From a virus (lineage: Duplodnaviria; Heunggongvirae; Uroviricota; Caudoviricetes), in the IMG/VR virus record IMGVR_UViG_3300045597_000172: a stretch of DNA of 64,000 nucleotides; one strand, 5' to 3'. Below the pieces are notes generated by a model. The model did no database searches. It was not told the DNA's origin and was given only the letters and a program-made list of their open reading frames with translations. Positions 6,145-44,682 of this stretch are shown here, one piece after another. Position 1 is the stretch's first letter, and each line of letters opens with the position of its first letter. A program made the position numbers and the translations under genes.

Positions 6145-8007
6145 ATGACTTATCACAATGTTCCAACCGGAACTACTAACAACAATAGTAATAGTAACAA
6201 CAACAATAACAACTCTGTACCACCCGTATTACCTATCAGTGCAAAAAAGGCGCTCAAAGATGACGTCCCCGATTTACTAATTGATTACGAAAAATTAGCA
6301 AAGAAACATAAAATCCAAAAAGTAATGTTTAGAGACAACATTATCAATCGATTATTGACAATCCTAACTACTAAAAATCATCCAAACGCATTACTTGTAG
6401 GTGAAGCCGGAACTGGTAAAACAGCTATTGTTAAAGACTTAGCTGTTCGATTATACGAAGCTGATCCAATCGTCACCGCTATGTTAGGGGATAAAACAAA
6501 AATTTACGAATTGCCATTAACAAACCTAGTAGCTGGCTCTGGCATCATGGGCACTATGGAAGCAAAACTAGATAATGTTGTGAAATTCATTAGCAATCCA
6601 AAAAACAACGCTATTCTATATCTTGACGAAATTCACCAATTAACAACTACTCAAAGTTTAAAAGAAGTCGCAGAAATTCTCAAACCTGCATTAGCAAGCG
6701 GAGAACTTCACGTGATCGGGTCTACTACTACTCAAGAACTAAAATTCTGGCGTAGCAATCCGGCATTAACAAGACGCTTTTCGAATTTAATTGTAGATGA
6801 GTTATCAAACGAACAAACGGAACAAATTCTTGCAAAACTGATTCCGGTTTTACAAAAATCTAACATCATGGTTCAAGTTGATCCTACAATTTTAAGTAGA
6901 GTCGTCAAAACGGGTAACCAATATGCTAAAACTCTGGATACACATCGTCCAGATTCAGCAATTACCGTATTGGATCAAGCAATGGCAATGTCAAGATTAC
7001 AATCAATTACGTTAAAACAATCTGGCGTAACAATTCCTGCCAAAGTAACCGAACAATTAATTGATCATGCCGGAAAACAGCTTGTCAATAATAACAACGA
7101 TGATTCATTAACATCGCAAACATTGTCAGATTTACAAACACAATTTGACGAAAATATTATCGGACAAGACAAAGCCAAATCAAAAATTCTTAAATCAATT
7201 CGATCAATGATTCTTGAATTAACGCCACAAAAACGTCCATATAGCTTTCTATTTGCCGGCTTAACCGGAACAGGTAAAACCGAAATCGCAAAACAATTAG
7301 CAAAGGTTTTATTCGGTGCAAAAGATCGATTCATATATCTCAATATGACTGAATACGCAACTGATGCATCATTAACTACGTTAATTGGATCATCACGTGG
7401 CTACGTTGGTTATGATTCCGCACAACCTTTACCACTTGATACCTTAAAATCAAATCCATTTCAAATTGTTTTACTAGATGAATTTGAAAAAGCTAGTACC
7501 GATGTCAAAAGATTGTTCATGCAAGCCTTGGACGAAGGTGAAATAAGTTACGCAGACGGATCACATGTCGATTTCTCACACGCAATCGTTATTGGAACAA
7601 CGAATTCTGGAACAGATAAATTATCAGAATCTCACGTTGGTTTCGGTAATAAAGAATCAATCACCGAATCTGACTTAACAAACGCATTATTAACAAGTTT
7701 TCCACCGGAATTGTTAAATCGATTCGAATATATCGTTGCCTTCGATAAAATCACAAAAGAACAATATGCTGAAATTGTAACAATCAAGTACAACCAATTA
7801 AGACAAGAAATTAAAACATCACATCCCGAACTGGATATCATTCCAACCGTTGCCGAACCCGATATGCCCTTTATTCAAAGTATCACTGATAAAAGCTACG
7901 ATGCGCTAAAGAACGCACGTCCAGCAGAAAGATCAGTTAGACATTTTGTAGAAGATCAACTTTTAAACGCCAATCAAGGAACTATCGACTTAACGGCAAT
8001 TGTTTAG
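6145..8007 (+). CDS. Clp/Hsp100-family double-AAA+ unfoldase (ClpA/ClpC-like, compact, no M-domain) with a putative ClpP-docking loop
   Basis: D1 Walker A LLVGEAGTGKTAIV, Walker B ILYLDEIHQL, IGSTTTQE...ALTRRF. D2 Walker A FLFAGLTGTGKTEIAKQL, Walker B IVLLDEFEKA, IGTTNSG. HVGFG tripeptide loop at the position of the ClpA IGL / ClpX IGF loop. Poly-Asn tract near the N-terminus. Confidence 0.75.
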   Translation: MTYHNVPTGTTNNNSNSNNNNNNSVPPVLPISAKKALKDDVPDLLIDYEKLAKKHKIQKVMFRDNIINRLLTILTTKNHPNALLVGEAGTGKTAIVKDLAVRLYEADPIVTAMLGDKTKIYELPLTNLVAGSGIMGTMEAKLDNVVKFISNPKNNAILYLDEIHQLTTTQSLKEVAEILKPALASGELHVIGSTTTQELKFWRSNPALTRRFSNLIVDELSNEQTEQILAKLIPVLQKSNIMVQVDPTILSRVVKTGNQYAKTLDTHRPDSAITVLDQAMAMSRLQSITLKQSGVTIPAKVTEQLIDHAGKQLVNNNNDDSLTSQTLSDLQTQFDENIIGQDKAKSKILKSIRSMILELTPQKRPYSFLFAGLTGTGKTEIAKQLAKVLFGAKDRFIYLNMTEYATDASLTTLIGSSRGYVGYDSAQPLPLDTLKSNPFQIVLLDEFEKASTDVKRLFMQALDEGEISYADGSHVDFSHAIVIGTTNSGTDKLSESHVGFGNKESITESDLTNALLTSFPPELLNRFEYIVAFDKITKEQYAEIVTIKYNQLRQEIKTSHPELDIIPTVAEPDMPFIQSITDKSYDALKNARPAERSVRHFVEDQLLNANQGTIDLTAIV

Positions 8008-27736: not shown

Positions 27737-28012
27737 ATCTCAGTACGAGGCGCAAAGATTGACGCTAAAAACAAAGAAATTTGTTATATCTGATAACCGA
27801 TTGTGAATTGGTTCAACACCAATACAGAAGTTGGAGCTTAGAATCGGTTAACTTATAAAGTTTGAATCCTTATCGTACTATTTCATGCGTGCATTAACTT
27901 GCCAACCATAATTGGTTGCCGTCGCATAGAACTGCACCGACGTCAGTACAGCGTCGTAAAATAAATTAAGCAACACTCCTACAAGGAAATATTGTGCAGG
28001 TATTTCCATAAT

Positions 28013-28084
28013 TGTCCAATAGTTCAGTGGTAGAATATCTGACTGTTAATCAGAGGGTCGTAGGTTCGAATCCTACTTGGACAG
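28013..28084 (+). tRNA. tRNA-Asn (anticodon GTT)
   Basis: Acceptor tgtccaa/ttggaca. D-arm gttc-agtggta-gaat. Anticodon arm tctga-ctGTTaa-tcaga. T-arm gtagg-ttcgaat-cctac. Confidence 0.75.
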
Positions 28085-28303
28085 TAGATGCTACTAAACA
28101 AAGGCATTGCGCTAATTGCGAAAACCAAATAACATTGTTTACTAACGGTGTAACTAAGCTGGGCTAAATGCATCAAAACGATGCATAAATTATGAGATAT
28201 AAATTAAACGCTGGATTGCAACCAGTTGCTCATAATACCAATATTAAAAATGGTACCATTCTTAATATTAGTAGTTAGGTTCGATTCCTAAACGCTGTTA
28301 TTT

Positions 28304-28369
28304 CGTGATTGTAGCTCAAGACAAGAGTCATCGTTGTGACGAGATATTGGTGCAAATCCAATCAATCAC
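28304..28369 (+). ncRNA. degenerate tRNA-like element (66 nt) with T-loop UGCAAAU
   Basis: Acceptor gtgattg/caatcac (7/7). D-arm-like gctc-aagacaa-gagt. T-arm attgg-tgcaaat-ccaat. Anticodon arm truncated. Confidence 0.3.
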
Positions 28370-28405
28370 ATCATAAAATTCAAAATTGGAAAGGAAGATG
28401 TAAAA

Positions 28406-28669
28406 ATGGAATACCGAGTACCCGTTGCATATGGCTCATACGGAATTGTAAAAGTTAATGCTAAAAACAAGCAAGAACTAATCGAAAAATTATCATCTCA
28501 AGAGTTTATTGCTGAAATGCCATTACCTGACAATCCTGAATATCTCGATGACTCATTCGAAATCGATGTAGATGGTTTAGAATTTGAAGAACAACACGAC
28601 AAAAACGGAAACGCTGTCACCCTAGCATTATCTCATAACGAAATTAAAAAAATAAGAAATCCAGAATAA
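28406..28669 (+). CDS. hypothetical protein
   Basis: RBS ggaaaggaagatgtaaaa-ATG. 87 aa. Confidence 0.4.
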   Translation: MEYRVPVAYGSYGIVKVNAKNKQELIEKLSSQEFIAEMPLPDNPEYLDDSFEIDVDGLEFEEQHDKNGNAVTLALSHNEIKKIRNPE

Positions 28670-29138
28670 AACATTGTCCGCAACGACAATCAGCATTCAT
28701 TAAACTACGTGGTGGAGATGGCGTAGAGTAAAACTCACGTCCAAGAAAAAATACAACATGCTTACATAATGTTGTTGTAAAACAGATATTAAACAAAAAA
28801 TAAATTCAAAGGATGTGATGATCGTGCATAGAAGCCGTTTGCTTCACCGTCCGCGCGACGTTATGATTGAAAATATCAATTCATAAAAAAACAATGCTGC
28901 ATATACTATAAAACATAATTGGTGCGTGGGAAGTTGAAATACTTCTATATCGTTAGTTGCTAAAACCGGCTAATGACGAATTAGAATAGGCAAGTTCCGT
29001 TAAATGTACGCCAACCTAGATCTATGTACGTAAAAGCATAATTGATCGCATAGGAAAGACAGCCAATTTAACTTAAAAAGTCAGCACTAGACAAAAAGCC
29101 GTATCGAAGAACGCGTAATGACGTAATCATTACAAAAG

Positions 29139-29166
29139 TTGACAACCAAAGCCAACATGCTAACAT
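29139..29166 (+). promoter_or_regulatory. candidate sigma-A-type promoter upstream of tRNA-Asn (TTGACA-N16-TAACAT)
   Basis: -35 box ttgaca at 29139-29144, 16-nt spacer, -10 box taacat at 29161-29166. tRNA starts at 29184. Confidence 0.3.
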
Positions 29167-29183
29167 AACGTGTGTTAGTTCAT

Positions 29184-29255
29184 TGCTCAGTAGTTCAGTG
29201 GTAGAATAATTGACTGTTAATCAAGAGGTCGTAGGTTCGAATCCTACCTGAGCAG
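29184..29255 (+). tRNA. tRNA-Asn (anticodon GTT), third copy
   Basis: Acceptor tgctcag/ctgagca. D-arm gttc-agtggta-gaat. Anticodon arm attga-ctGTTaa-tcaag (A-G at the stem base). T-arm gtagg-ttcgaat-cctac. Confidence 0.7.
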
Positions 29256-29533
29256 TTTAAAAAACTATGGAAAGCAAACCATTTAAACTCGGTTATTGAT
29301 TACTGTAGGTCAACAATTTTGTACTATATGCATCAAAGACCCACCGTGCAAAATCCAGCACAAACGAGTCTGAGACATCATTTATTCCATTGATATGTTA
29401 GTCCAACTGACAATTCCGGAAACGGACTAAAATCCGTTGTAGATTAGAATCGTTATTGGATGAGATTACGAAACCGGTCCAATGAATAATGTATCAAGAT
29501 GGTAACAAGGAATAAATACATCAAACAGACGGT

Positions 29534-29605
29534 ACATCTGTAAGCTTACTGGTGAACTATTGGTCTCCAAAACCAAAATTGTTGGTTCGAATCCAACCAG
29601 ATGTA
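29534..29605 (+). tRNA. tRNA-Trp (anticodon CCA)
   Basis: Acceptor acatctg/cagatgt. Anticodon arm ttggt-ctCCAaa-accaa. T-arm gttgg-ttcgaat-ccaac. D-arm imperfect but same architecture as the second Trp gene at 44559. Confidence 0.6.
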
Positions 29606-29766
29606 TAAATCAAATGGTTATATCAATCGTTTGATTCTAGTACCAAAGTCAGCAATAGACTATAACAGCCGTAAAAATAGACGCATACTAACGTAATTAC
29701 TGTATAAAAATCAAACGAAGCATAGTAATTTGATGTGTTATTAAGGTGTAGGATAACATTTATTTC

Positions 29767-30092
29767 GGGCTTGTTTTGGATTCGACAGGGCATTAACGCT
29801 TTAATCTCGTCAACCAGTTAAATATAACTGCAAAAGAAAACACTTTAGTTGCTGCCTAGTTTAACCACTAAATAGCAACACCTCAACCCACTGGCAAAGC
29901 CGTGATAACCAGTGGTTTCAAACACGGATAAGTTAATTATGTTCCATTAACATAATTAATCGAAAACTAAAATGGTTAATGAATGTTTGTCATTAGCAAA
30001 ACTCATTATAAAAAAAATAATTAATGACTATGACGTAAGAATGATTACGGTAAGTGATGTCTTGGACGCGGGTTCGATCCCCGCCAAGTCCA
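29767..30092 (+). ncRNA. ssrA: tmRNA (SsrA), about 326 nt, predicted tag (A)AKENTLVAA
   Basis: 5' end GGGCUUGUUUUGGAUUCGACAGGG (tmRNA hallmark GGAUUCGACAGGG). 3' tRNA-like domain gcggg-ttcgatc-cccgc plus acceptor caagtcc pairing with 5' gggcttg, including a G3-U70 wobble (Ala identity element). Conserved UUAAAUAUAACU precedes resume codon GCA at 29830. Frame GCA AAA GAA AAC ACT TTA GTT GCT GCC TAG ends at 29859. Confidence 0.7.
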
Positions 30093-30284
30093 TAAATCAA
30101 AAAAAAATCGTCAAAAATATCTTGACCAAACTTATATGTTAACATATAAGAGTAGTAGGACCGCATACGCGGGATCCTGAGTACAACTTAGTCTAAAGAT
30201 ACCAAGTTGGAATCAAGCAGAGTCAGCTGCTAAGTCAGACAATTTGAACTACTAATTTTACGATATTTATTAATATCGTATTTC

Positions 30285-30363
30285 GGACTCGAAATCAACA
30301 ACCCTAGGAACGTTGATTCCATGAATAGCTGTTAGCCAGATGGTTTGAATCCATCCGAGTCCA
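30285..30363 (+). ncRNA. degenerate tRNA-like element (79 nt)
   Basis: Acceptor ggactcg/cgagtcc (7/7). T-arm gatgg-tttgaat-ccatc. Middle has a tcaac/gttga hairpin with a 12-nt loop but no anticodon arm. Confidence 0.3.
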
Positions 30364-30394
30364 TTGCACCAAATAAAATAAGAAAGCTGGAAAT

Positions 30395-30955
30395 ATGATG
30401 ACCGATAACATTAAAAAGATTCCACAAATTCCATTGTTACACGATATTCCCTTCAATCAAGAAGACAAAGATCTAATCGTTCAACTATCATTACAAGGTG
30501 TAATTGCATCACTCCACAATGACCCAAAATACGGTTTGTTTTTATCAATCAAGAAACCTATTCGCGGCATGTTGTCAGTACAAATTCTCATCGAAAAAGC
30601 AACTCATGGAAATCTCAAAAAAAGTATTCTTGATAGTTGCAAAAATGCACCTGAACAATTATCAAAAATGCGAGATGTGAAATATTTGGATAGTTTAATT
30701 AATAACATCGAAAACTTCCATTTCATTCGCAAATATGACGAACCTTATTTTAAAGAAAACATTCAGCCATTACTAAACAATCACGCTGAGACAGAAAAAA
30801 TAGATAATAAAATTAATCAATACGAATCTGACACTGGCAAAAAAATTGATCTTACCAAACCTGATTTTCAAAAACGTTTAAACGAAATCCGAAAGATACA
30901 ACGACGAAAAATTCATTTTCAATGTAATCTTATTCGCATTGCTAACAGTATCTAA
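30395..30955 (+). CDS. hypothetical protein
   Basis: RBS aagaaagctggaaat-ATG. 186 aa. Confidence 0.45.
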   Translation: MMTDNIKKIPQIPLLHDIPFNQEDKDLIVQLSLQGVIASLHNDPKYGLFLSIKKPIRGMLSVQILIEKATHGNLKKSILDSCKNAPEQLSKMRDVKYLDSLINNIENFHFIRKYDEPYFKENIQPLLNNHAETEKIDNKINQYESDTGKKIDLTKPDFQKRLNEIRKIQRRKIHFQCNLIRIANSI

Positions 30956-30986
30956 AATTAATCACGGTAATCTATTACCGTGTTAC

Positions 30987-31059
30987 GCAGTTTTAGCTCA
31001 GTAGGTAGAGCATCTGTCTTGTAAACAGAAGGTCACAAGTTCGAGCCTTGTAAACTGCA
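30987..31059 (+). tRNA. tRNA-Thr (anticodon TGT)
   Basis: Acceptor gcagttt/aaactgc. D-arm gctc-agtaggta-gagc. Anticodon arm tctgt-ctTGTaa-acaga. T-arm acaag-ttcgagc-cttgt. Confidence 0.75.
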
Positions 31060-31140
31060 TTGCGGTTAATCCGCAATCTAATTGTTTTCTTCAATAGTAA
31101 ATTATTCCTTTTCCGATATGGTAAATCCATATCGTTTTAT

Positions 31141-31227
31141 GGACAGTTGGCCGAGTCTGGTTTATGACGCTGGCTTTGAACACCAGTTGTGAGCAATCAC
31201 ACACAGGTTCGAATCCTGTACTGTCCG
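31141..31227 (+). tRNA. tRNA-Ser (anticodon TGA), class II
   Basis: Acceptor ggacagt/actgtcc. Anticodon arm ctggc-ttTGAac-accag. Long variable arm with tgtga/tcaca stem. T-arm acagg-ttcgaat-cctgt. Confidence 0.6.
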
Positions 31228-31242
31228 TCCAAATATCTTAAA

Positions 31243-33062: not shown

Positions 33063-36000
33063 ATGAATAAAAAAATAATAGCGAAAAAAGTTTCAATTAC
33101 TATTCTAATTACAATCCTTGGATTAACAAACATGTCAGATGTTTTTTTATTAAAAAATAACATTATACACGCAGATCCTACCAATTGGACACAAACTGCA
33201 AACAACGTTAACGCAACAAACAAAAATCTTATAGACAATGCTGTAACAAATTCAAAAAAGACAGAAAATACAAATTTAATTCAGGATCAAACGCAAACAA
33301 TCGATGCAACATCCTCGAATTTAAATGACATTGAAAATCAAGTCAAAAATAGCAACAACAACATGATATCGGAAATAAACAGCGATACCGAAAAACAAAA
33401 AGCTATTAACGAAAAAAATGAACAAATTGAAAAAGACAACAATTCAAAAAAACAATCATATGAAGCAGCATTAACAAATTATAATAACGAATTAGCTGCA
33501 TATAAAAAAAATCTACAAGATCAAGGATTAAATGATGGTATTGATCCTTCCACATTCAATCAACAACTCCAATTTACTCAAGATGACAGAAACAATACAG
33601 AACCAAAAGTGAGTGTTCAATTGTTATCAGGTGCAGTTAATTACAAAAAATTAATAAGTAATGGATACGGAACTAGTAATTTTCCATGGTCAAATTCACA
33701 TGAAGCTGAACAGATATATGCAAAGAATTCAAACGCTAAATCTATTAACGGTGATTTTGCAAAAATCACATGGGATGGTGTATATGGATATTCATATAAT
33801 GGTATACAAATTAAAAAAATTGTAGAAACATTCAGTGACTGGAAATTAGCTGCTACTAAACATGTAAGTGGCCCTCGTGGAATAACCGTGTATCAAAATC
33901 CAAATGAAAATTTTTGGTATTTAAACGGATCCGACACGACAACAAACTATCAATTTTACGATGAAAACGGGAATTTAATAAATTTCGAACCAAATAACGC
34001 ATACGTCGCGGTAGGTAGTTTGGACAGAGCATATTACGCATACGATTTTGGAAGTCACACATACAACACCAATATCGTAGCCAACCAAATCGAAGAAGTT
34101 CAATTATTGTCAGCCGGAACCGGAATACAATTAACAAACAGTACTATTAGCAATCACGATGGCAACAATATGTTTTCTGATAAAGATAATGTACAAATCC
34201 AATATCAAAATGGTGGATTAACAGAATATGGTGCATTTAACGTTACAGGTGGAAATATTAAACTACATTACCACACAAATATGACAAACGAAGCACCAAA
34301 CGCATCAACATTAACTTCATTTGCAACTATATTTCCATTAAGCTCTGCGCCAAAGAAACCAACAAGTCCAACATACACACCAACAGATCCGACAGTGACA
34401 GATATTCATTATCATTACACAAACATAAATTTAAAATTAACAGTCACAACAAATTATCTTCAAAACAATGATTCAAAAAAACAAGAAGATGGCTCAAAAT
34501 TAGCTGACTCTACAACACAATCCGGAGATAGTAACTCAAACTATTCAACTAGTAAAAAAGATTTCACTGGTTGGCATCTAACTTCTACGCCAACAAATGC
34601 ATCCGGAACATTAACAAATTATGACGTGACAGTTAACTATATTTACGACCGTGATCCCGAAACTGTAAAAGTAAAATACGTAGATGAAGAAACCGGAAAT
34701 GATATTAGCAATCCAACAACATTAAATGGATATTACGGATTATCATATACATCATCTCCGAAATCAATTACTGGTTGGACCTTATCTAAAACACCAAATA
34801 ATACATCTGGAACATATTCAAAGAGTAATGCCGATATCATCTATCAATACAAGAGAAATACCGAAACAGTAACCGCAAATTATCTTGCCAATAATGATAT
34901 TAATAAAAATGAATTTGGACAAAAATTAGCGGATTCAGTAACACAAAAAGGTGGTTTCGGAACAAACTACACAACATCTGCAAAAGATATTTTAGGATGG
35001 CATTTACTTGGAATTCCAACCAATCAAAATGGAACCTACCAAGAAAGTAACCCCGACGTCAACTACATTTACGATCGTGATCCTGAAACGGTAACCGTAA
35101 AATATGTAGACACTAAAGGAAACACGTTAGCAAAAAGCAATACCTTAATTGGATACTACGGATTGGATTATCAAACATATCCTGCAAGTATTGATAACTA
35201 CCACCTAACTGCAATTCCTACAAATGCAACCGGTAAATATTCAAATGGTCCAATTACCGTAACTTACATTTATGACGTTGATCCCGACATCAAAGAAGGA
35301 CTTTCTAACGATGCAATAAACAGTAAAAATTACGATACTGCAATTTCTAACACATCACAAAACGTACAATACAATAATGTTTACCACTATGTTGATAAAA
35401 TCACAGTCGGTGGATCCATGAACCTTACCGATCTAAAAATCCAAACAAATCTACCAAGTGATGTTAATCCAATCGTTAACGGTGGCGACATCAATAATCA
35501 AAACATTAAAGTTTATGTTCGTGAAGATGATGGTTCATTAACAAATGTTACAAGTCAAGGAACACTTGCGTATCAAGTAAACAACAAAGATGTAACTAGC
35601 GATAATAACAAAAATGTCGCAATTGATACTGATAAAACAAGAACTCTGACATGGACACCAAAAACACCATCTGCATTCACTGGAAAACAAATCATTACTG
35701 ATATTCCAGTAAATCTTCAACCAGATGCTGCAAAACTAAAAAGTTATAAATCTGACAACGGTATTAATATCAAACACACCACTCAATTAATTGAATCAAA
35801 TGATTTACCAAGTTCTGGTGAAATAAAAACTGATACCACATCACAAAAAACGTATACCAGCAACAATACAACAATTCAATTACCAAACATCTATACGTTA
35901 AAATTTTACAAATCAGAATTTCAAACCAACGATACAATTAATGGAAAAGTTTGGTTGAAACTATATCCAAACCTTGTCGGACAAGAAGATACAGGTAATA

Positions 36001-37334
36001 AAAAACTAGCAACACTAACAGTTAACGGTACAACTCAAGATGTACAAAGCAGTTTATCAACTAGCAACAAAGAAATTTTAACAAACGTAAATAGTTCAAA
36101 AACTGCTAATAATTCAGATCCAACATTTGATATTAACCTAAAAAGTAATCAAACAAACAGCAGTCAAAATCCAGTTGTTTTAACAAAGAGTCTTATTAAA
36201 GATCAAAGTAACAACAACTCCATTTCAAAAACAACTTACGTTTCAAACGATGATCTTTACACTAGCAAAAACACTGCTGCTCAATACAAAAAAGAAAACA
36301 CCTCAAGTACTGTTGGATCCGCACCTGAAGAAGTTGAAACTTATTACGACCAAGATTTAACAAATCCACAAACAGAAACGACTAACGAAACCTCTCCTAC
36401 TTACGTCAAACTCATGGAATACATGAACGCAAACTATAGTAAGACGGTTAGTGCAAAAGCTGGTTATGGTATTAAAAATGATTTGATTTTAAACTACTAT
36501 GGCCGTCATTTAACAAATCAGTCAACTTCTGATACTGATTTTGAAAAAAATAATCTTGCAACGATCTTTAGTACGGATACGGATTTAACCACTGCCAACG
36601 GAAAAACTTCAAGTCAAATTAACGATAATCAACATGAATTACTTGATTATAATGCCGAAGTCAATTCCGTTAACGACTTAATCAACAATGTCAACAATCT
36701 AACTACGAATGCACAAAAGACAAATTATCTTCAATCGAAACTCGGTACAAACGCCGGAAATTCATTTGTCTATAATCTAGCCGGAAAAGAAAACACACTT
36801 GATCAAGCCGTATCAGACATCAACAAGTCAACTGCCTATGTTAACCTTGATGATAAGACAAAATCATTCATCAATACCGTTGACACCGACACAAATTCAA
36901 AACCGATTGCGCCAAAACTATATAGTATGAATTACCGTTTCAACAAACGACTATTATCATACGAAAATAGTAACAGTAACGGTGTTGAATATTATGACCG
37001 AAACAGTTCACATGTAGCTCAAAACGATGACCAACTAATGAATAAAACCGATCCAATCAGTAGCACAACTGATGGCGGATACAAATTTTATACCAACCAA
37101 TGGTTAAAAATTGGAACATATCCGACACACTACACAAGTAACGAATTTGGAACTAACAATTTCAAATTAAAAGCTGATCGCGATCTAAACATTTATGGCC
37201 GACGTTATCTAACACGTTCTGATACTAAAAATGATGGAGATAAATATGATGACCTATCAATTCAACCTGTCATTTCGAAAAATAGTAACGGAACCGGAAC
37301 TACTATGCCTGACGGTGAATGGAGTAATAAATAA
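33063..37334 (+). CDS. large secreted adhesin-like protein with four MucBP-like repeats (1423 aa); possible phage receptor-binding/adhesion protein or host-surface adhesin
   Basis: Signal peptide MNKKIIAKKVSITILITILGLTNMSDVFLL. Four alternating repeats of about 70 aa between roughly nt 34380 and 35290: TV(K/T)VKYVD..GN.L.......GYYGL.Y and ...NY.T......GWHL...PTN..GT......V.YIYDRDPE. Asn/Thr/Ser-rich. No LPXTG at the C-terminus. Confidence 0.65.
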   Translation: MNKKIIAKKVSITILITILGLTNMSDVFLLKNNIIHADPTNWTQTANNVNATNKNLIDNAVTNSKKTENTNLIQDQTQTIDATSSNLNDIENQVKNSNNNMISEINSDTEKQKAINEKNEQIEKDNNSKKQSYEAALTNYNNELAAYKKNLQDQGLNDGIDPSTFNQQLQFTQDDRNNTEPKVSVQLLSGAVNYKKLISNGYGTSNFPWSNSHEAEQIYAKNSNAKSINGDFAKITWDGVYGYSYNGIQIKKIVETFSDWKLAATKHVSGPRGITVYQNPNENFWYLNGSDTTTNYQFYDENGNLINFEPNNAYVAVGSLDRAYYAYDFGSHTYNTNIVANQIEEVQLLSAGTGIQLTNSTISNHDGNNMFSDKDNVQIQYQNGGLTEYGAFNVTGGNIKLHYHTNMTNEAPNASTLTSFATIFPLSSAPKKPTSPTYTPTDPTVTDIHYHYTNINLKLTVTTNYLQNNDSKKQEDGSKLADSTTQSGDSNSNYSTSKKDFTGWHLTSTPTNASGTLTNYDVTVNYIYDRDPETVKVKYVDEETGNDISNPTTLNGYYGLSYTSSPKSITGWTLSKTPNNTSGTYSKSNADIIYQYKRNTETVTANYLANNDINKNEFGQKLADSVTQKGGFGTNYTTSAKDILGWHLLGIPTNQNGTYQESNPDVNYIYDRDPETVTVKYVDTKGNTLAKSNTLIGYYGLDYQTYPASIDNYHLTAIPTNATGKYSNGPITVTYIYDVDPDIKEGLSNDAINSKNYDTAISNTSQNVQYNNVYHYVDKITVGGSMNLTDLKIQTNLPSDVNPIVNGGDINNQNIKVYVREDDGSLTNVTSQGTLAYQVNNKDVTSDNNKNVAIDTDKTRTLTWTPKTPSAFTGKQIITDIPVNLQPDAAKLKSYKSDNGINIKHTTQLIESNDLPSSGEIKTDTTSQKTYTSNNTTIQLPNIYTLKFYKSEFQTNDTINGKVWLKLYPNLVGQEDTGNKKLATLTVNGTTQDVQSSLSTSNKEILTNVNSSKTANNSDPTFDINLKSNQTNSSQNPVVLTKSLIKDQSNNNSISKTTYVSNDDLYTSKNTAAQYKKENTSSTVGSAPEEVETYYDQDLTNPQTETTNETSPTYVKLMEYMNANYSKTVSAKAGYGIKNDLILNYYGRHLTNQSTSDTDFEKNNLATIFSTDTDLTTANGKTSSQINDNQHELLDYNAEVNSVNDLINNVNNLTTNAQKTNYLQSKLGTNAGNSFVYNLAGKENTLDQAVSDINKSTAYVNLDDKTKSFINTVDTDTNSKPIAPKLYSMNYRFNKRLLSYENSNSNGVEYYDRNSSHVAQNDDQLMNKTDPISSTTDGGYKFYTNQWLKIGTYPTHYTSNEFGTNNFKLKADRDLNIYGRRYLTRSDTKNDGDKYDDLSIQPVISKNSNGTGTTMPDGEWSNK

Positions 37335-37340
37335 CACAAA

Positions 37341-37370
37341 AAACCCGCATTTAACGATGCGGGTTTTTTT
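37341..37370 (+). terminator. rho-independent terminator
   Basis: cccgcat-ttaacg-atgcggg followed by ttttttt. Confidence 0.7.
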
Positions 37371-37515
37371 ATAACTATATAAAAAAAATATGCACAATTT
37401 AATCAAATACCATTGCATTTGTGAAATTTATAAGATAAAATAAAGTTCGTAAGTAATGTGTGCACACACCATATCGTTACATACATCATTCCAAAATAAA
37501 GGAAGTGTTTCAAAT

Positions 37516-37698
37516 ATGCCAGAAGCAATGGGTAATATCTCTTGGTCGACATACGCATTAGTAATTGCTGCCGTTATCTTAGGAGTTGTGCTAATTTCGT
37601 TCCCAGAAATTACAAAATCAATCATGTCATTCTTACAGACAATGATCACTACCGCGGGCGGTAAAATTACCGACACGTTAGCAAAATCAGCATCATAA
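37516..37698 (+). CDS. small hydrophobic protein (60 aa); candidate Flp-type major pilin
   Basis: RBS aaaggaagtgtttcaaat-ATG. MPEAMG-NISWSTYALVIAAVILGVVLI resembles the Flp G/xxxxEYxLIAALIAV pattern with TY in place of EY. Has its own downstream hairpin and T-tract. Precedes a Tad-like operon. Confidence 0.4.
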   Translation: MPEAMGNISWSTYALVIAAVILGVVLISFPEITKSIMSFLQTMITTAGGKITDTLAKSAS

Positions 37699-37797
37699 TA
37701 GCAATAATACAAGTCGATAACGCCGGGAAGATTGAAAAATCGACCCGGTTTTCTTTTTAAAATAAGTAGTAACTCTACAATGTAAGGATGTGAATAC

Positions 37798-38244
37798 ATG
37801 CTATCCGGAAAACTTTATACACTAGGTTTAGTTATGTTTTCAGTCTTTTGCAGTCTTCTAATTGCAATCTATTCAATCATGGAATTCACACAACAAAGAC
37901 TCCAAGGTTCACTTCAAACCGTTACCGAAGAAGCTATCTATGACGCACGGTACGATAACGCACGAAGCACTAATAAAGTTTTTGTACTAGATAAAACAGT
38001 CTTTGAACAAGACCTGATCCATAGCAATATCAAAAGTATTTCCAACGATTCAAGTTTAAAATTAGAATACATGCACGATGATAGTACCGCGGCAAAATCA
38101 CTAAACTTAACAGATTCCCGCATCCCTATCAAAGCAGTTAGAGTAACCGTAGTTGATGGAACAAACGATCACTTAAACAAAACAATTACTTACATCATCA
38201 ACTCAAATTCAAAAACTAAAGACGATGACTTATCAAATAACTAA
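37798..38244 (+). CDS. N-terminally membrane-anchored protein (148 aa); candidate TadE/F-like pseudopilin
   Basis: N-terminal TM helix LYTLGLVMFSVFCSLLIAIYSIM followed by a soluble domain. First gene of the operon containing the secretion ATPase. Confidence 0.35.
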   Translation: MLSGKLYTLGLVMFSVFCSLLIAIYSIMEFTQQRLQGSLQTVTEEAIYDARYDNARSTNKVFVLDKTVFEQDLIHSNIKSISNDSSLKLEYMHDDSTAAKSLNLTDSRIPIKAVRVTVVDGTNDHLNKTITYIINSNSKTKDDDLSNN

Positions 38245-38260
38245 TAAAAAAGGTGAACTT

Positions 38261-39691
38261 ATGGAAAATACAGAAAAAACAAACACTCCAATTACCAAAA
38301 CAGAAAATACCGCAACAAAATTTCACCCCTTTCACGACGACGGTGAAACTGATAAAATCTACAAAATCATCAGTGAACTTTTTGCAGACGAACTAACTGA
38401 AGCACTCTTACCAAAAGGCGATACAAAAAAGATTGTTGAAATTCTACAAACTCGAAAAGAATTTGAAGACTGCACAACTCACGACAATCCGCAACGGGCA
38501 CGTGAGATTGCAACTGATATTGCTGGTTTAGGTGTAATTGAAACTATCATTAAAAAATACAATCATGAAAATATCCAAGATATTGGTTACAACAGTAATC
38601 ACATTTTGACCATTGATACAGCCGAACATAAATTCGTATATACCGAAAAAAACTTTGATCCGCATATCAATACGCAATACATGTTAGGTTTGATTAATCG
38701 GTTAGCGCAGCATGAAGCCCCTTCCGGAAAACAATTCGTAGCTGACTCTCCGATTTATAATGGATCTGCTCATATTGGTGACGGTGACGACCGTATTTAT
38801 CTCCGTATTTCAGCAACACATACAAGTCTCGCACCAACTGGACCAACATTAAGTATACGTGTCTCAAAATCGCACCTAGCATTGACTAAAGAGAACTTCA
38901 ATAACATTGCACCCATGATGATCTACAATCTGTTACACGTCTTTATCGCGGCACACACGAGTATTGTGATTTCTGCCGAAACTGGAGCCGGAAAAACAGA
39001 ACTTCAAAAACTGTTACTTGGATTTGTACCATTTGATGAACGAATTGTTTTAATTGAAGATACAAACGAAATGCATTTGACCACCCTTTATCCAAAAAAA
39101 GATATTTTTTCATGGGTAAGTGATCCGTTACTAACTATAAATCATAAACCTGTTAACACCACTACATTAATCGAACAATCACTTCGTACAAACCCAAAAT
39201 GGTTAATCGTTGCAGAATCTCGTGGTGATGAAGCATACGAATTAATCAGTGGTGCTAGATCAGGTCACCCAATCATCACAACGCTACATGCTACATCAAA
39301 CGCAGCAGTACCCGGACGATTAATTGGGATGTCAGCAATGGGCTACAAATTCAACGAAGAAATGTTAGACCGTGATATTTTAAACTATATCAATATCGGA
39401 ATTCATTTAAACTTAAAATCCAATTATCATGGTCGAAAATTACGGTACATTGACCAAATCGTTGAATACGTACCACGCTCCGAAAAATACCCAGATGGAA
39501 TCAATATACTATTTCAACAACACATCGACAAAAATGGTTACCGCACATACTGGATAAACGAAGCCACTGACAAACTAAAAGATCATATTTACCGTGAACT
39601 TGATGAAAAGCTGAAATATCCAACAATTCAAAAAGACTCACCAAAAAAAGAAAAACTCTTTGAATTCAAGTCTGAAACGGGTGAACAATAA
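38261..39691 (+). CDS. VirB11/CpaF/TadA-family secretion (type IV pilus/T4SS-type) ATPase
   Basis: Walker A ISAETGAGKTELQKL. Asp box RIVLIEDTNEMH. Walker B/Glu box WLIVAESRGDEAYEL. His box SGHPIITTLHATS. ATG at 38261 preferred over track start 38225 because of the aaaaaggtgaactt RBS. Confidence 0.7.
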   Translation: MENTEKTNTPITKTENTATKFHPFHDDGETDKIYKIISELFADELTEALLPKGDTKKIVEILQTRKEFEDCTTHDNPQRAREIATDIAGLGVIETIIKKYNHENIQDIGYNSNHILTIDTAEHKFVYTEKNFDPHINTQYMLGLINRLAQHEAPSGKQFVADSPIYNGSAHIGDGDDRIYLRISATHTSLAPTGPTLSIRVSKSHLALTKENFNNIAPMMIYNLLHVFIAAHTSIVISAETGAGKTELQKLLLGFVPFDERIVLIEDTNEMHLTTLYPKKDIFSWVSDPLLTINHKPVNTTTLIEQSLRTNPKWLIVAESRGDEAYELISGARSGHPIITTLHATSNAAVPGRLIGMSAMGYKFNEEMLDRDILNYINIGIHLNLKSNYHGRKLRYIDQIVEYVPRSEKYPDGINILFQQHIDKNGYRTYWINEATDKLKDHIYRELDEKLKYPTIQKDSPKKEKLFEFKSETGEQ

Positions 39692-40515: not shown

Positions 40516-40532
40516 GAAAGGAGCACACTTAA

Positions 40533-41387: not shown

Positions 41388-41407
41388 AATAACCGAGGTG
41401 AATAATT

Positions 41408-41776
41408 ATGGACGACGTCAGTATTGGACAACTCATGCATTACCTAACGCTTGGATTATGGATTAGCCTCATTCTATTCATTCTTTGTTATCCAATGTAT
41501 TCAGTTGCACAATTAGTATCATTTCAACAATCATCAGCAACAATTCTATCACGATACGGTGGCGTAACCGCCGATGCCAAAAAAACAGTTAATACCATTG
41601 GGGAAACATATTACAGTAATAAATTCAGTATCGTAGATACCCCAAGCGACAAAACAAGCAATTACGGAGGAAACATTCCATACACAATTCATGTAAGAAT
41701 CCCCGTAATCAGTAACTTAGTCGAAACAAATATCCAAGCCAACACTGAATCAGACGTACGTAACGAAAACAATTAA
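41408..41776 (+). CDS. N-terminally anchored small protein (122 aa); pseudopilin-like, paralog of 41962..42336
   Basis: N-terminal TM helix LTLGLWISLILFILCYPMY. Shares a C-terminal motif Y-[TI]-I-x-V-[RH]-IP-[VL]-I with the 41962 product. Confidence 0.4.
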   Translation: MDDVSIGQLMHYLTLGLWISLILFILCYPMYSVAQLVSFQQSSATILSRYGGVTADAKKTVNTIGETYYSNKFSIVDTPSDKTSNYGGNIPYTIHVRIPVISNLVETNIQANTESDVRNENN

Positions 41777-41796
41777 AAAAAGAAAGATGTGATCAT

Positions 41797-41946: not shown

Positions 41947-41961
41947 GGCGGTGATTAAATA

Positions 41962-42336: not shown

Positions 42337-42337
42337 A

Positions 42338-42359: not shown

Positions 42360-42400
42360 TTAACCCTTAAAATATAACGACCCGTTTATATTCCAAATAA

Positions 42401-44321: not shown

Positions 44322-44385
44322 TAAAATCAGAAATTGATACTTGCAACATTTACCTCAATCTGATATTATATAACCAAGCAGTTTT

Positions 44386-44459
44386 CAGGATATAGCTAAG
44401 TTTGGTACAGCGCCGCATTTGGGATGCGGAGGTCACAGGTTCAAATCCTGTTATCCTGA
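44386..44459 (+). tRNA. tRNA-Pro (anticodon TGG)
   Basis: Acceptor caggata/tatcctg. Anticodon arm ccgca-ttTGGga-tgcgg. T-arm acagg-ttcaaat-cctgt. Confidence 0.7.
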
Positions 44460-44465
44460 TTTTCT

Positions 44466-44538
44466 GGGACATTAGCGCAATTGGGAGAGCATCTGCTTTG
44501 CAAGCAGAAGGTTGACGGTTCAAATCCATCATGTTCCA
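44466..44538 (+). tRNA. tRNA-Ala (anticodon TGC) with G3-U70
   Basis: Acceptor gggacat/atgttcc with the G3-U70 wobble. D-arm gcgc-aattggga-gagc. Anticodon arm tctgc-ttTGCaa-gcaga. T-arm gacgg-ttcaaat-ccatc. Confidence 0.75.
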
Positions 44539-44558
44539 TAGTTACAAATTTTTAAAAT

Positions 44559-44630
44559 GTGCTGTTACGCTCAATGGTAAACTACCGGTCTCCAAAACCG
44601 GTCATCTTGGTTCGAATCCAAGACAGCATG
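44559..44630 (+). tRNA. tRNA-Trp (anticodon CCA), second copy
   Basis: Acceptor gtgctgt/acagcat. Anticodon arm ccggt-ctCCAaa-accgg. T-arm cttgg-ttcgaat-ccaag. Same architecture as 29534..29605. Confidence 0.6.
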
Positions 44631-44682
44631 TCAAAAAACCACAAATAGAAACCAAGGTGGTATACACGTCAATCAATTTTTC

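What the first reader, a model, noticed from the sequence alone, without database searches (positions are those of the whole stretch)
29767..30092. Phage-borne tmRNA (ssrA) with intact tag reading frame (A)AKENTLVAA
The element begins GGGCUUGUUUUGGAUUCGACAGGG and ends with a T-arm (gcggg-UUCGAUC-cccgc) and acceptor strand that pairs with the 5' end, including the G3-U70 Ala identity wobble. The conserved UUAAAUAUAACU block immediately precedes a resume codon GCA, and the frame runs AKENTLVAA to a TAG stop. The -VAA ending matches the ClpXP/ClpAP degron class. tmRNAs are encoded by only a few large phages, mycobacteriophage Bxz1-like being the known example. Here it sits in the same genome as a phage-encoded Clp unfoldase with a ClpP-docking loop (6145..8007), so the phage may bring both the tagging RNA and the unfoldase for rescuing or targeting stalled ribosomes during infection. 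At about 326 nt it is short, which implies a reduced pseudoknot set.
Basis: partly seen in the sequence, partly recalled or inferred. Interest (0 to 1): 0.72.

Follow-up and report, generated by a model that had tools for sequence, protein, structure and literature searches.

The report
tmRNA gene on giant Lactobacillaceae replicon
The window really does contain an intact ribosome-rescue RNA (tmRNA) gene, carried with about 20 tRNA genes on a rare extrachromosomal element of at least 237 kb; such genes are already known on large phages and megaplasmids, so the find is ordinary in kind, apart from lacking the one pseudoknot (PK1) that nearly all tmRNAs keep.

Summary
Observation confirmed. ARAGORN calls a tmRNA at exactly 29767..30092 (+) with tag AKENTLVAA*. 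Rfam RF00023 scores 105.9 bits (threshold 47, E 2e-40, full length).

All canonical parts except PK1 are present: a 7-bp acceptor stem with G3·U, the T-arm, a long helix 2, the UUAAAUAUAACU block before resume codon GCA, the stop codon in helix 5, and complementarity for PK2, PK3 and PK4. The gene is identical in three independent metagenomes.

- "Phage-borne" is not shown. In 118 kb of contiguous sequence I found no capsid, terminase, portal or tail gene. I also found no relaxase, VirB4 or VirD4.
- The element mixes plasmid traits (ParM, a CpaF/Tad-like module shared with conjugative plasmids, LPXTG and MucBP adhesins) with large-phage traits (NrdDG, ATP DNA ligase, RNase H, RtcB, methylases).
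- Its ParM and ligase are closest (44-50% identity) to Limosilactobacillus plasmid-prophages. One of these, p53608_1, also carries a tRNA array and a tmRNA.
- tmRNAs on phages and megaplasmids are well documented (Al-Shayeb 2020; phage G; pMP7017).
- The Clp claim holds: a ClpE/C-like unfoldase with a VGF ClpP-docking loop. No ClpP or SmpB was found.

The unusual feature is that PK1 is absent: only 17 nt separate helix 2 from the resume codon.

The parts
29767..30092 (+). tmRNA (ssrA) gene, 326 nt, one-piece; CCA not encoded
   Evidence: ARAGORN; Rfam RF00023 105.9 bits; identical in three samples
29767..29773 (+). Acceptor stem, 5' strand GGGCUUG (G3 of the G3·U pair at 29769)
   Evidence: Pairs with 30085-30091 in the MFE fold and the CM alignment
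29778..29786 (+). Conserved GGAUUCGAC (D-loop analogue of the tRNA-like domain)
   Evidence: Aligned at posterior probability '*' to the RF00023 consensus GGaUUCGAC; invariant across this RNA, p53608_1 and phage G
29786..29812 (+). Helix 2, 5' strand (tmRNA nt 20-46)
   Evidence: Pairs 20-29/289-298, 32-34/283-285, 36-40/277-281, 42-46/265-269 in the MFE fold; same register as the CM
29813..29829 (+). 17-nt linker ACCAGUUAAAUAUAACU between helix 2d and the resume codon; this is where PK1 should be and is not
   Evidence: CM replaces the PK1 subtree (26 consensus nt) with 5 nt; only AU-rich 5-6-bp helices are possible here; p53608_1 and pMP7017 keep the PK1 helix
29830..29859 (+). Tag reading frame GCA AAA GAA AAC ACU UUA GUU GCU GCC UAG = AKENTLVAA*
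   Evidence: ARAGORN coding part 64-93; sequence
29848..29879 (+). Helix 5 (nt 82-88 / 107-113), enclosing the UAG stop codon
29888..29927 (+). PK2: CCACUGG/CCAGUGG (122-128/143-149) plus CCGUG/CACGG (134-138/157-161)
   Evidence: Helix enumeration; H-type topology read from the coordinates; no covariation test was possible
29932..29975 (+). PK3: 12-bp stem 166-177/183-194 plus CCAUU/AAUGG (178-182/205-209)
29977..30028 (+). PK4 (tentative, AU-rich): 211-216/237-242 plus 223-230/255-262
   Evidence: alternative pairings exist
30031..30064 (+). Helix 2, 3' strand (nt 265-298), including the GACUAUGACGUAAG motif
30068..30084 (+). T-arm GCGGG-UUCGAUC-CCCGC
30085..30092 (+). Acceptor stem 3' strand CAAGUCC (U of the G3·U pair at 30089) plus discriminator A; followed by UAA, not CCA
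29730..29759 (+). Weak promoter-like site TTGATG-18 nt-TAACAT, ending 7 nt before G1 of the tmRNA
   Evidence: no more frequent than chance (2 found, 1.6 expected), so only suggestive
22540..31231 (+). tRNA array surrounding the tmRNA (15 ARAGORN tRNAs plus one extra Rfam tRNA); tRNA-Asn 29183 and tRNA-Trp 29533 lie immediately upstream
44385..44632 (+). Second small tRNA cluster (Pro, Ala, Trp)
6145..8007 (+). ClpE/ClpC-like two-ring AAA+ unfoldase (620 aa) without N- or M-domain; VGF ClpP-docking tripeptide at 7636-7644
   Evidence: Pfam AAA_2, AAA and AAA_lid_9; PDB ClpE 8e-82 and ClpC 6e-75 with an aligned VGF/AGF loop

Best explanation
This is a genuine and probably functional one-piece tmRNA gene that has lost pseudoknot PK1. 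It sits in a tRNA array on a rare extrachromosomal replicon of at least 237 kb, whose host is most likely a member of the Lactobacillaceae. The replicon is of the megaplasmid or plasmid-prophage type. On present evidence it cannot be called a phage.

Inferred mechanism:
1. The RNA is transcribed with, or next to, the neighbouring tRNAs.
2. Host RNase P trims its 5' end. Because CCA is not encoded, a 3' endonuclease trims the other end and the CCA-adding enzyme completes it.
3. Host alanyl-tRNA synthetase charges it with alanine through the G3·U pair.
4. It binds host SmpB and EF-Tu and enters ribosomes stalled on broken or stop-less mRNAs.
5. Translation resumes at GCA and appends (A)AKENTLVAA.
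6. The -VAA end delivers the tagged product to host ClpXP, and possibly to host ClpP docked to the element's own ClpE/C-like unfoldase.

The likely benefit is extra ribosome-rescue capacity while a large AT-rich replicon is heavily expressed. This matches the proposal made for the expressed tmRNA of megaplasmid pMP7017.

Shown here: the gene, its structural elements, its conservation across samples, the absence of PK1, the absence of SmpB and ClpP in 118 kb, and the ClpP-docking loop. Inferred: transcription, processing, charging, tagging and degradation.
For: tmRNA identity: ARAGORN; RF00023 105.9 bits, full length. That score exceeds those I obtained for the expressed pMP7017 tmRNA (78.1 bits), the p53608_1 tmRNA (80.7), and phage G (67.6) and Tomas (104.4).

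Intactness: G3·U, the T-arm, helix 2 in the consensus register, a resume context AUAACU|GCA matching the consensus AUAAuU|GCa, a 9-codon frame with the stop in helix 5, and PK2-PK4 complementarity. Fold z = -4.24. 100% identity in three samples.

Carrier:
- The longest contig carrying the adjacent ORF is 236,971 bp.
- ParM is 50% and 44% identical, and the ATP ligase 48% and 47% identical, to Limosilactobacillus pLM1 and p53608_1. Both of those carry terminase or other structural genes, a holin or endolysin, and RepA.
- p53608_1 has six tRNAs and an adjacent tmRNA.
- A 453-aa protein is shared with pMP7017 and with Lactococcus megaplasmids.
- The CpaF/Tad-like module is shared with conjugative plasmids.
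- LPXTG and MucBP proteins point to a Gram-positive host in or near the Lactobacillales.

Precedent: pMP7017's tmRNA is highly transcribed (PMC10832533).

PK1 tolerance: in E. coli a stable hairpin can replace PK1 (PMC3968760). Oenococcus oeni tmRNA naturally lacks PK1 helix 4 (PMC1168896).
Against: There is no expression, charging or tagging data. No relatives of this tmRNA were found, so none of the helices could be tested by covariation.

PK1 is the one pseudoknot reported as required for tagging in E. coli (PMC3968760), so its absence could mean reduced or lost function. No SmpB was found on the element, so function depends on a host I could not identify directly.

It could hold either virion genes or a conjugation system. 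Nucleotide-metabolism genes (NrdDG, dNMP-kinase-like, two non-specific nucleases, ligase) fit a lytic phage better than a plasmid.
Confidence: 0.78

Rival explanations
1. One reading: the carrier is a true huge (jumbo) phage. The tmRNA is a phage tool that keeps host ribosomes available, or senses stalled ribosomes, during lytic infection, and it works together with the phage's own Clp unfoldase.
For: - About 20 tRNAs plus a tmRNA.
- NrdD/NrdG, ATP-dependent DNA ligase (A_M plus OB_2), two non-specific endonucleases, a dNMP-kinase-like protein, NUDIX, DHH and metallophosphatase, a T4 gp30.3-like protein, RNase H, RtcB, and Dam and N4 methylases.
- Many small ORFans, almost all on one strand.
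- Several PHROG families of unknown function.
- Huge phages are known to carry tmRNAs (PMC7162821); phage G has one within a tRNA cluster.
Against: No terminase, portal, capsid or tail gene in 118 kb by Pfam or PHROGs. A ParM partition protein is present. The adhesin-CpaF/VirB11-membrane protein module is syntenic with conjugation regions. LPXTG and MucBP adhesins and GtfA/GtfB glycosyltransferases are present. No relatives were found in IMG/VR using four proteins or patterns. The closest cultured relatives by ParM and ligase are maintained as plasmids.
Confidence: 0.35
2. The gene is a decaying or non-functional tmRNA copy, and loss of PK1 is the first step of erosion. It is carried passively in the tRNA array.
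For: PK1 is missing, and PK1 is the pseudoknot needed for tagging in E. coli (PMC3968760). There is no SmpB on the element. Degenerate tRNA-like sequences lie nearby at 30153-30363, and there is a tRNA call with a 2-base anticodon at 22540.
Against: Every other functional element is intact, and the covariance-model score is higher than for the expressed pMP7017 tmRNA. The short tag frame is open, ends in a canonical degron, and has its stop in helix 5. The deletion removes PK1 cleanly and leaves helix 2d and the resume context in register. The sequence is identical in three samples. A PK1-free design is known to be workable (PMC3968760; O. oeni in PMC1168896).
Confidence: 0.1
3. The RNA is a competitor rather than a helper. 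It captures host SmpB and stalled ribosomes so that tagging follows the element's own short tag. That would re-route or change the fate of tagged proteins, for example towards the element's ClpE/C-like unfoldase, or serve as a read-out of host translational stress.
For: The tag is short (9 encoded residues) and, by my own recollection of host tags, differs from the usual Lactobacillales type. A ClpP-docking unfoldase lacking the N- and M-domains is encoded 22 kb away. Al-Shayeb 2020 mentions phage use of tmRNA to sense stalled ribosomes (PMC7162821).
Against: The tag keeps the ordinary hydrophobic -VAA end, so nothing suggests a changed fate. There is no genetic linkage beyond being on the same replicon. 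There is no ClpP and no adaptor. This is pure inference.
Confidence: 0.08
4. The window is part of a bacterial chromosome and this is simply the host's own ssrA.
For: A tmRNA is normally chromosomal; the LPXTG and MucBP proteins are cellular-type genes.
Against: No housekeeping genes in 118 kb. Most ORFs have no family match. ORF186 next to the gene has only two relatives among 5.8 billion proteins. The longest contig is 237 kb. The tRNAs are interleaved with ORFans. ParM is present. No species-representative genome carries this tmRNA.
Confidence: 0.01

Closest known systems
tmRNA of Limosilactobacillus reuteri ATCC 53608 plasmid p53608_1
   Same: One-piece tmRNA directly beside a tRNA array on a large low-GC Lactobacillaceae extrachromosomal replicon. 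That replicon encodes a ParM homologue (44% identity) and an ATP ligase (47%) related to those of this element. It shares the Firmicute-type 5' end GGAUUCGACAG, a UAAAUAUAA block before resume codon GCA, a tag that ends GCU GCC UAG, and no encoded CCA.
   Different: 375 nt with a clear PK1 helix and resume codon at position 89; tag ANNHRVTALAA; overall sequence too diverged for BLAST. Its carrier is 138.5 kb and has recognisable phage structural genes, a holin and an endolysin. Only 3 of 204 ORFs are shared.
tmRNA of Bifidobacterium breve conjugative megaplasmid pMP7017 (PMC10832533)
   Same: A plasmid-borne tmRNA next to a large tRNA array (18 tRNAs). It is experimentally shown to be highly transcribed. 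The carrier shares a 453-aa protein (35% identity) with this element. The proposed role is extra trans-translation capacity.
   Different: 397 nt, 57% GC, PK1 present, tag ANTVSSSRFTLAA, actinobacterial host. The carrier is a characterised conjugative plasmid.
tmRNAs of huge and large phages: Bacillus phage G, Streptomyces phage Tomas, mycobacteriophages, and the Xanthomonas and Stenotrophomonas phages (Al-Shayeb 2020, PMC7162821; PMC12484599)
   Same: tmRNA embedded in a tRNA cluster of a very large mobile genome. Phage G's is also short (309 nt), Firmicute-type, and shares the UUAAAUAUAACU block.
   Different: Those carriers are proven virions. Phage G's block lies about 20 nt further from helix 2. 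The Xanthomonas, Stenotrophomonas and Chryseobacterium phage tmRNAs are permuted two-piece forms. There is no detectable sequence similarity outside the tRNA-like domain.
Oenococcus oeni tmRNA (Burks et al. 2005, PMC1168896)
   Same: A Lactobacillales tmRNA reported as one of the very rare cases that cannot form PK1.
   Different: It is reported to lack only helix 4, keeping helix 3 as a hairpin, and it is chromosomal. Here the whole PK1 segment is missing. I could not retrieve the O. oeni sequence to compare directly.

Membership tests
tmRNA (Rfam RF00023, one-piece) | Covariance-model score above the curated gathering threshold over the full model | tested here: met
   105.9 bits against 47, E 2.2e-40, model positions 1-374, not truncated
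tmRNA (Rfam RF00023, one-piece) | tRNA-like domain: 7-bp acceptor stem joining the 5' and 3' ends, with the G3·U alanine identity pair, a T-arm with a 7-nt loop, and discriminator A | tested here: met
   G1-G7 pair with C319-C325, including G3·U323; GCGGG-UUCGAUC-CCCGC; A326
tmRNA (Rfam RF00023, one-piece) | Long helix 2 in place of an anticodon arm | tested here: met
   23 base pairs in four segments, nt 20-46 with 265-298, in the consensus register
tmRNA (Rfam RF00023, one-piece) | mRNA-like region: conserved A-rich upstream block, resume codon, short ORF with a hydrophobic Ala-Ala end, and a stop codon in helix 5 | tested here: met
   UUAAAUAUAACU|GCA...GCU GCC UAG = AKENTLVAA*; helix 5 at 82-88/107-113
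tmRNA (Rfam RF00023, one-piece) | Pseudoknot PK1 between helix 2 and the resume codon | tested here: not met
   Only 17 nt lie between helix 2d and GCA. The CM deletes the PK1 subtree (5 nt where the consensus has 26). No GC-containing helix is possible. PK1 is not universal: O. oeni and some organelle tmRNAs lack it (PMC1168896), so this does not exclude membership.
tmRNA (Rfam RF00023, one-piece) | Downstream pseudoknots PK2-PK4 | tested here: inconclusive
   H-type complementarity is clear for PK2 and PK3, and AU-rich and ambiguous for PK4. With no homologues available, covariation could not be tested.
tmRNA (Rfam RF00023, one-piece) | Partner protein SmpB available | tested here: not met
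   No SmpB by tblastn in 118 kb of the element. Host SmpB is presumed. This concerns function, not family membership.
tmRNA (Rfam RF00023, one-piece) | Expression, alanylation and tagging activity | not testable with these tools
   Needs RNA-seq or a Northern blot, an in vitro charging assay, and tag detection
Tailed phage (Caudoviricetes) genome | Large terminase, portal, major capsid and tail genes | tested here: inconclusive
   None found by Pfam or PHROGs in 118 kb (and the precomputed Pfam).
Plasmid / plasmid-prophage of Gram-positive bacteria | Active partition system | tested here: met
   ParM/actin-like protein at 824-2038 (Pfam MreB-like_C; phrog_691 partition protein, 3.5e-29). It is 50% identical to the annotated ParM/StbA of pLM1.
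Plasmid / plasmid-prophage of Gram-positive bacteria | Replication initiator (Rep) | tested here: inconclusive
   No Rep was recognised in 118 kb. A P-loop 795-aa protein (12990-15377) and a 348-aa neighbour are unassigned.
Conjugative plasmid (MPF type, Firmicutes) | Relaxase, VirD4 coupling protein and VirB4 ATPase | tested here: not met
   Only the CpaF/VirB11 ATPase, two membrane proteins and small membrane ORFs are present (38225-44260). The plasmid counterparts continue with VirB2, VirD4 and VirB4, but the window continues with tRNAs and a helicase. This applies to the 118 kb examined.

The most novel reading that the evidence does not exclude
This is a naturally PK1-free one-piece tmRNA that is fully active. 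Together with the element's stripped-down ClpE/C-like, ClpP-docking unfoldase it forms a portable tag-and-unfold kit on a new lineage of giant Lactobacillaceae replicons that bridge megaplasmids and phages. If so, it would be a natural counterpart of the engineered E. coli PK1-replacement mutants, and would show that the most conserved tmRNA pseudoknot is dispensable in vivo.
Probability: 0.15. Interest if true: 0.6.

Novelty: new member of a known kind. Interest (0 to 1): 0.35.

Why it matters
Taken at face value this is one more tmRNA on one more large mobile element, and that class is already documented for huge phages, cultured phages and megaplasmids. Three things give it modest value.

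1. It lacks PK1, the pseudoknot nearly all tmRNAs retain and the only one reported as needed for tagging in E. coli. A working natural example would inform models of how the region between the tRNA-like and mRNA-like domains is held in shape.
2. Its carrier is a rare replicon of at least 237 kb that combines plasmid maintenance and adhesion or pilus genes with phage-style nucleotide metabolism. Its nearest cultured relatives are Limosilactobacillus plasmid-prophages. This adds to evidence that tRNA-plus-tmRNA cassettes are a recurring cargo of Gram-positive gut and food megareplicons.
3. As a by-product, a tmRNA was found on the 138.5-kb p53608_1 plasmid of the well-studied strain L. reuteri ATCC 53608. 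The genome paper does not list it, and the plasmid is smaller than pMP7017, which was described as the smallest plasmid known to carry a tmRNA.

Tried and rejected
- **Close relatives of the tmRNA.** BLAST against GenBank phages found none at E 1e-5. At E 10 it matched only the T-arm and acceptor of other phage tmRNAs, and against plasmids only noise.
- **Exact and degenerate pattern scans.** None matched in viral contigs, genome contigs or metagenome contigs. The control pattern does match the window. The JGI sample that holds the element is evidently not in the scanned metagenome collection.
- **Relatives through the adjacent ORF186.** It has only two homologues. The 80%-identical one lies on contigs under 1 kb without the tmRNA. 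Covariation analysis was therefore impossible, and I did not build a covariance model.
- **Relatives in IMG/VR** through the 795-aa protein, the ligase and the 453-aa protein: none.
- **Walking the contig** to find virion or conjugation genes.
- **Lactococcus megaplasmid pJM1A as a close relative: rejected.** Only about 11 of 204 ORFs are shared, at 20-39% identity, and it has no tRNA or tmRNA.
- **Phage G as a second PK1-less example: not upheld.** Its UUAAAUAUAACU block lies further downstream, leaving room for extra structure.
- **A dedicated promoter upstream of the tmRNA.** The TTGA-N18-20-TAACAT motif occurs no more often than chance.
- **The two tRNA-like folds at 30153-30363.** No Rfam family matched them.
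- **Sample accessions** were searched in the literature, with no hits.
- **A replichore model from GC skew.** The skew changes sign near window -5 kb without a matching strand switch, so I did not rely on it.
Full report
**1. The observation**

The feature is real and sits at exactly the stated coordinates. ARAGORN calls a tmRNA at 29767..30092 (+) with tag peptide AKENTLVAA* and coding part 64-93. Rfam's tmRNA model RF00023 matches 29767..30095 end to end (model 1-374), at 105.9 bits against a gathering score of 47, E 2.2e-40.

Reading the sequence with the MFE fold and a helix enumeration gives the following. tmRNA numbering is used; window coordinate = 29766 + n.
- Acceptor stem 1-7/319-325, with G3·U323 and discriminator A326.
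- The conserved GGAUUCGAC.
- Helix 2 as four stacked segments: 20-29/289-298, 32-34/283-285, 36-40/277-281 and 42-46/265-269.
- A 17-nt linker, ACCAGUUAAAUAUAACU.
- The frame GCA AAA GAA AAC ACU UUA GUU GCU GCC UAG (64-93).
- Helix 5 (82-88/107-113), enclosing the stop codon.
- PK2: CCACUGG/CCAGUGG plus CCGUG/CACGG.
- PK3: a 12-bp stem plus CCAUU/AAUGG.
- An AU-rich and therefore tentative PK4.
- The T-arm GCGGG-UUCGAUC-CCCGC.

The gene is followed by UAA, so CCA is not encoded. The fold is more stable than shuffles (z = -4.24, 0 of 100 as good). The 326 bases are identical in contigs from three independent samples.

**2. The missing pseudoknot**

The one that is missing is PK1.

In the covariance-model alignment, the PK1 subtree (26 consensus positions) is replaced by 5 nt. 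In the same model's alignment of the p53608_1 and pMP7017 tmRNAs, the PK1 helix is present and paired. Only 17 nt separate helix 2d from the resume codon. In E. coli, PK1 alone occupies nt 49-78 and the resume codon is at nt 90 (PMC1168896). Between nt 20 and 66 only AU-rich 5-6-bp helices are possible, and they conflict with helix 2. A direct alignment with the p53608_1 tmRNA shows the gap at this place.

According to Burks et al. 2005, PK1 is found in nearly all tmRNAs, and Oenococcus oeni (a member of the Lactobacillales) is a rare exception that lacks helix 4 (PMC1168896). Giudice et al. 2014 summarise that PK1 is the only pseudoknot required for tagging in E. coli, but that a small stable hairpin can replace it (PMC3968760). 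So a PK1-free tmRNA is unusual but not implausible as a working molecule. Because no homologue of this RNA could be found, none of these helices could be tested by covariation.

**3. What carries it**

GenBank phages have nothing similar at the DNA level beyond tRNA genes.

The window encodes:
- a ParM/actin-like partition protein;
- MoxR and VWA proteins;
- a ClpE/C-like unfoldase;
- a UvrD helicase;
- an LPXTG protein, an SPFH protein and a 1423-aa MucBP adhesin;
- a CpaF/VirB11-type ATPase;
- an SNF2 helicase, RNase H, RtcB, MgsA and UDG.

Nearly all ORFs are on the + strand.

I extended the sequence to 118 kb (window -16.3 kb to +102 kb) using exact-protein contig look-ups. Downstream lie two DNA methyltransferases, non-specific nucleases, a kinase-like protein, NrdD/NrdG and an ATP-dependent DNA ligase. 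There is then a strand switch at about +96 kb, followed by HU, a rhomboid-like protein and GtfA/GtfB-type glycosyltransferases.

In all of this there is no terminase, portal, capsid or tail gene. There is also no relaxase, VirB4 or VirD4 (same calls, plus 21 and 50). The longest contig carrying the neighbouring ORF is 236,971 bp, so about half of the replicon was out of reach.

**4. Plasmid connections**

A concatenate of family-less ORFs hit almost nothing in phages but 273 plasmids, 223 of them conjugative. All those hits were through ORFs 39691-40515 and 40533-41387.

On Enterococcus and Bacillus plasmids these two proteins follow a CpaF/VirB11 ATPase and a large surface protein inside the conjugation region, which continues with VirB2, VirD4 and VirB4. 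The window has the first half of that arrangement (adhesin, ATPase, two membrane proteins, five small membrane ORFs) and then switches to tRNAs and a helicase.

A 453-aa upstream protein (phrog_12834, 1.6e-62) is shared with SPbeta-like Staphylococcus phages. It is also shared with the Lactococcus cremoris megaplasmids and the Bifidobacterium megaplasmids, including pMP7017. The Lactococcus plasmid pJM1A shares about 11 of 204 ORFs at low identity and has no tRNA or tmRNA.

**5. The closest cultured relatives**

The ligase is 47-48% identical over its full length to genes on 'non-mobilizable plasmids' of Limosilactobacillus mucosae (pLM1, 108 kb), L. reuteri (129 and 138.5 kb) and Ligilactobacillus salivarius. 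ParM is 50% and 44% identical to the pLM1 and p53608_1 proteins.

Both of those plasmids carry RepA, HU and an unmistakable phage module: tape measure, large terminase and holin in pLM1; structural proteins, holin and endolysin in p53608_1. They are therefore plasmid-form prophages. Wegmann et al. 2015 describe p53608 pI as a RepA/ParA megaplasmid with 98.8% of its genes on the leading strand, an incomplete prophage, nucleotide-metabolism genes and six tRNAs (PMC4667477).

ARAGORN and Rfam show that p53608_1 also has a tmRNA directly beside those six tRNAs: 375 nt, tag ANNHRVTALAA, 80.7 bits. So the combination of a ParM replicon, a tRNA array and a tmRNA already exists in a cultured Lactobacillaceae strain.

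Only three ORFs are shared with the present element, which is therefore a distant and much larger cousin. These links, together with the LPXTG and MucBP proteins, make a Lactobacillaceae host likely. I could not test this directly.

**6. What is already known**

- Al-Shayeb et al. [quoted passage not shown]
- Phage G carries a 308-309-nt tmRNA in a tRNA cluster (PMC12484599).
- A permissive BLAST hit 83 GenBank phage records at the conserved 3' end, and several of the listed hits carry tmRNA annotations. One-piece forms occur in phage G and Streptomyces phage Tomas. Permuted forms occur in Xanthomonas, Stenotrophomonas and Chryseobacterium phages.
- Dineen et al. 2024 show that the conjugative megaplasmid pMP7017 expresses a 397-nt tmRNA next to its tRNA region, and propose that it gives translational support (PMC10832533). 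I confirmed that gene (78.1 bits) and the 18-tRNA array.

The kind of thing is therefore known, on both phages and plasmids.

**7. The Clp claim**

ORF 6145..8007 has two AAA+ modules (Walker A at residues 86 and 372). It is most similar to ClpE (8e-82) and ClpC (6e-75), with ClpB and ClpA close behind. It has VGF (498-500; window 7636-7644) aligned to VGF of ClpE and AGF of ClpC, the ClpP-docking tripeptide. It lacks the N-terminal and middle domains.

No ClpP and no SmpB is found in the 118 kb. The proposed partnership with the tmRNA is unsupported conjecture. In the well-studied systems ClpXP does most of the degradation of tagged proteins by reading the C-terminal LAA (PMC3968760). That a -VAA end works the same way rests on my own knowledge of other species' tags, not on a test here.

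**8. Most likely mechanism**

I infer, without having shown, the following sequence.
1. The gene is transcribed with or next to the upstream tRNA-Asn and tRNA-Trp. A consensus-like promoter lies at 29139-29166, and a weak one ends 7 nt before G1, though that motif is no more frequent than chance.
2. Host RNase P, a 3' endonuclease and the CCA-adding enzyme mature the RNA.
3. Host AlaRS charges it through the G3·U pair.
4. Host SmpB and EF-Tu deliver it to stalled ribosomes.
5. (A)AKENTLVAA is appended, and the product is degraded by Clp proteases.

The benefit would be added rescue capacity for a large, AT-rich, heavily expressed replicon.

Rivals: a true lytic jumbo phage as carrier (0.35), a decaying copy (0.1), a competitor or sensor role (0.08), and a host chromosomal gene (0.01).

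**9. Verdict**

I classify it as a new member of a known kind. Absence of PK1 is the one trait that could lift it to a new variant. Interest is 0.35.

Noticed in passing
L035:819-1193 (minus strand) = LN906635.1 about 100,819-101,193 (L. reuteri ATCC 53608 plasmid p53608_1): A 375-nt tmRNA (tag ANNHRVTALAA; Rfam 80.7 bits) sits beside the plasmid's six tRNAs. The genome paper lists only the six tRNAs, and six locus tags (pI107-pI112) are missing from the CDS table, so the tmRNA appears to be unannotated. At 138.5 kb this plasmid is smaller than pMP7017 (190 kb), which was described in 2024 as the smallest plasmid known to carry a tmRNA.
   Followed up: partly
window 30285-30363 (+): A tRNA-like fold that neither ARAGORN nor Rfam calls. 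It has a 7-bp acceptor stem GGACUCG/CGAGUCC with discriminator A, a T-arm GAUGG-UUUGAAU-CCAUC, and a single 7-bp hairpin where the D and anticodon arms should be. MFE is -23.3 kcal/mol, z = -3.06. It could be a degenerate tRNA or an unknown tRNA-like RNA.
   Followed up: partly
window 30153-30254 (+): A multi-hairpin structure of about 100 nt, closed by UAGUAG/CUACUA, directly after the tmRNA (z = -2.5). It has no Rfam match.
   Followed up: partly
window 22540-22611 and 25973-26058 (+): ARAGORN reports a 'tRNA-???' with a 2-base anticodon at 22540. Rfam finds an extra tRNA at 25973-26058 (42.2 bits) that ARAGORN does not call. Both are atypical tRNAs in the array.
   Followed up: no
window 33063-44260 (+): A 1423-aa MucBP adhesin, small ORFs, a CpaF/VirB11-type ATPase (38225-39691), two membrane proteins (39691-41387) and five small ORFs with N-terminal hydrophobic segments. 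This is syntenic with the first part of pXO2-type and Enterococcus faecium plasmid conjugation regions, but without VirB2, VirD4 or VirB4. It may be a stand-alone Tad-like pilus or adhesion module.
   Followed up: partly
window 6145-8007 (+): A minimal two-ring Clp unfoldase (620 aa) that lacks the N-domain and the middle domain but keeps the VGF ClpP-docking loop. No ClpP is encoded nearby.
   Followed up: partly
window 2513-6130 (+): A MoxR-type AAA+ ATPase (2513-3880) is followed by a 568-aa protein with a C-terminal VWA domain (4424-6130), the classic MoxR-VWA pair. It lies just upstream of the Clp unfoldase.
   Followed up: no
L025:422-730 (Bacillus phage G, JN638751.1 412060-412368): In phage G's tmRNA the conserved UUAAAUAUAACU block lies inside the tag that ARAGORN and the 2025 paper report (AKLNITNNELQVA). 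By analogy with this tmRNA and the Rfam consensus, translation may instead resume at the AAC after the block, giving (A)NNELQVA.
   Followed up: no
downstream of the window: L014/L016 (window about +74 to +102 kb): N4/N6 and Dam methyltransferases, two non-specific endonucleases, NrdD/NrdG and an ATP-dependent DNA ligase. After a strand switch near +96 kb come HU, a rhomboid-like protein and GtfA/GtfB-type glycosyltransferases, which in other bacteria glycosylate serine-rich adhesins.
   Followed up: partly
L023 and L024 (SRR12718067 and SRR12718064): Related elements share the upstream small-ORF block. To its left, across a 1.8-kb gap, lie minus-strand genes for a type IA topoisomerase, YdjM, T5orf172 and an AAA protein. 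This divergent switch may mark the replication origin. The 83-aa protein at this end has 24 near-identical cluster members on other contigs, so this block is more widespread than the tmRNA region.
   Followed up: partly
window 56429-57646 and 62591-63484 (+): An RtcB RNA ligase and a metallo-beta-lactamase-fold hydrolase (Lactamase_B_2, weak match; phrog_392) lie on the same replicon as the tRNA array. Together they could serve tRNA repair or 3' processing.
   Followed up: no
window 12990-17009 (+): A 795-aa protein with a P-loop (GESRWGKT) and a 348-aa neighbour have no Pfam or PHROG match and no relatives in IMG/VR. They may be the element's primase-helicase or replication initiator.
   Followed up: no
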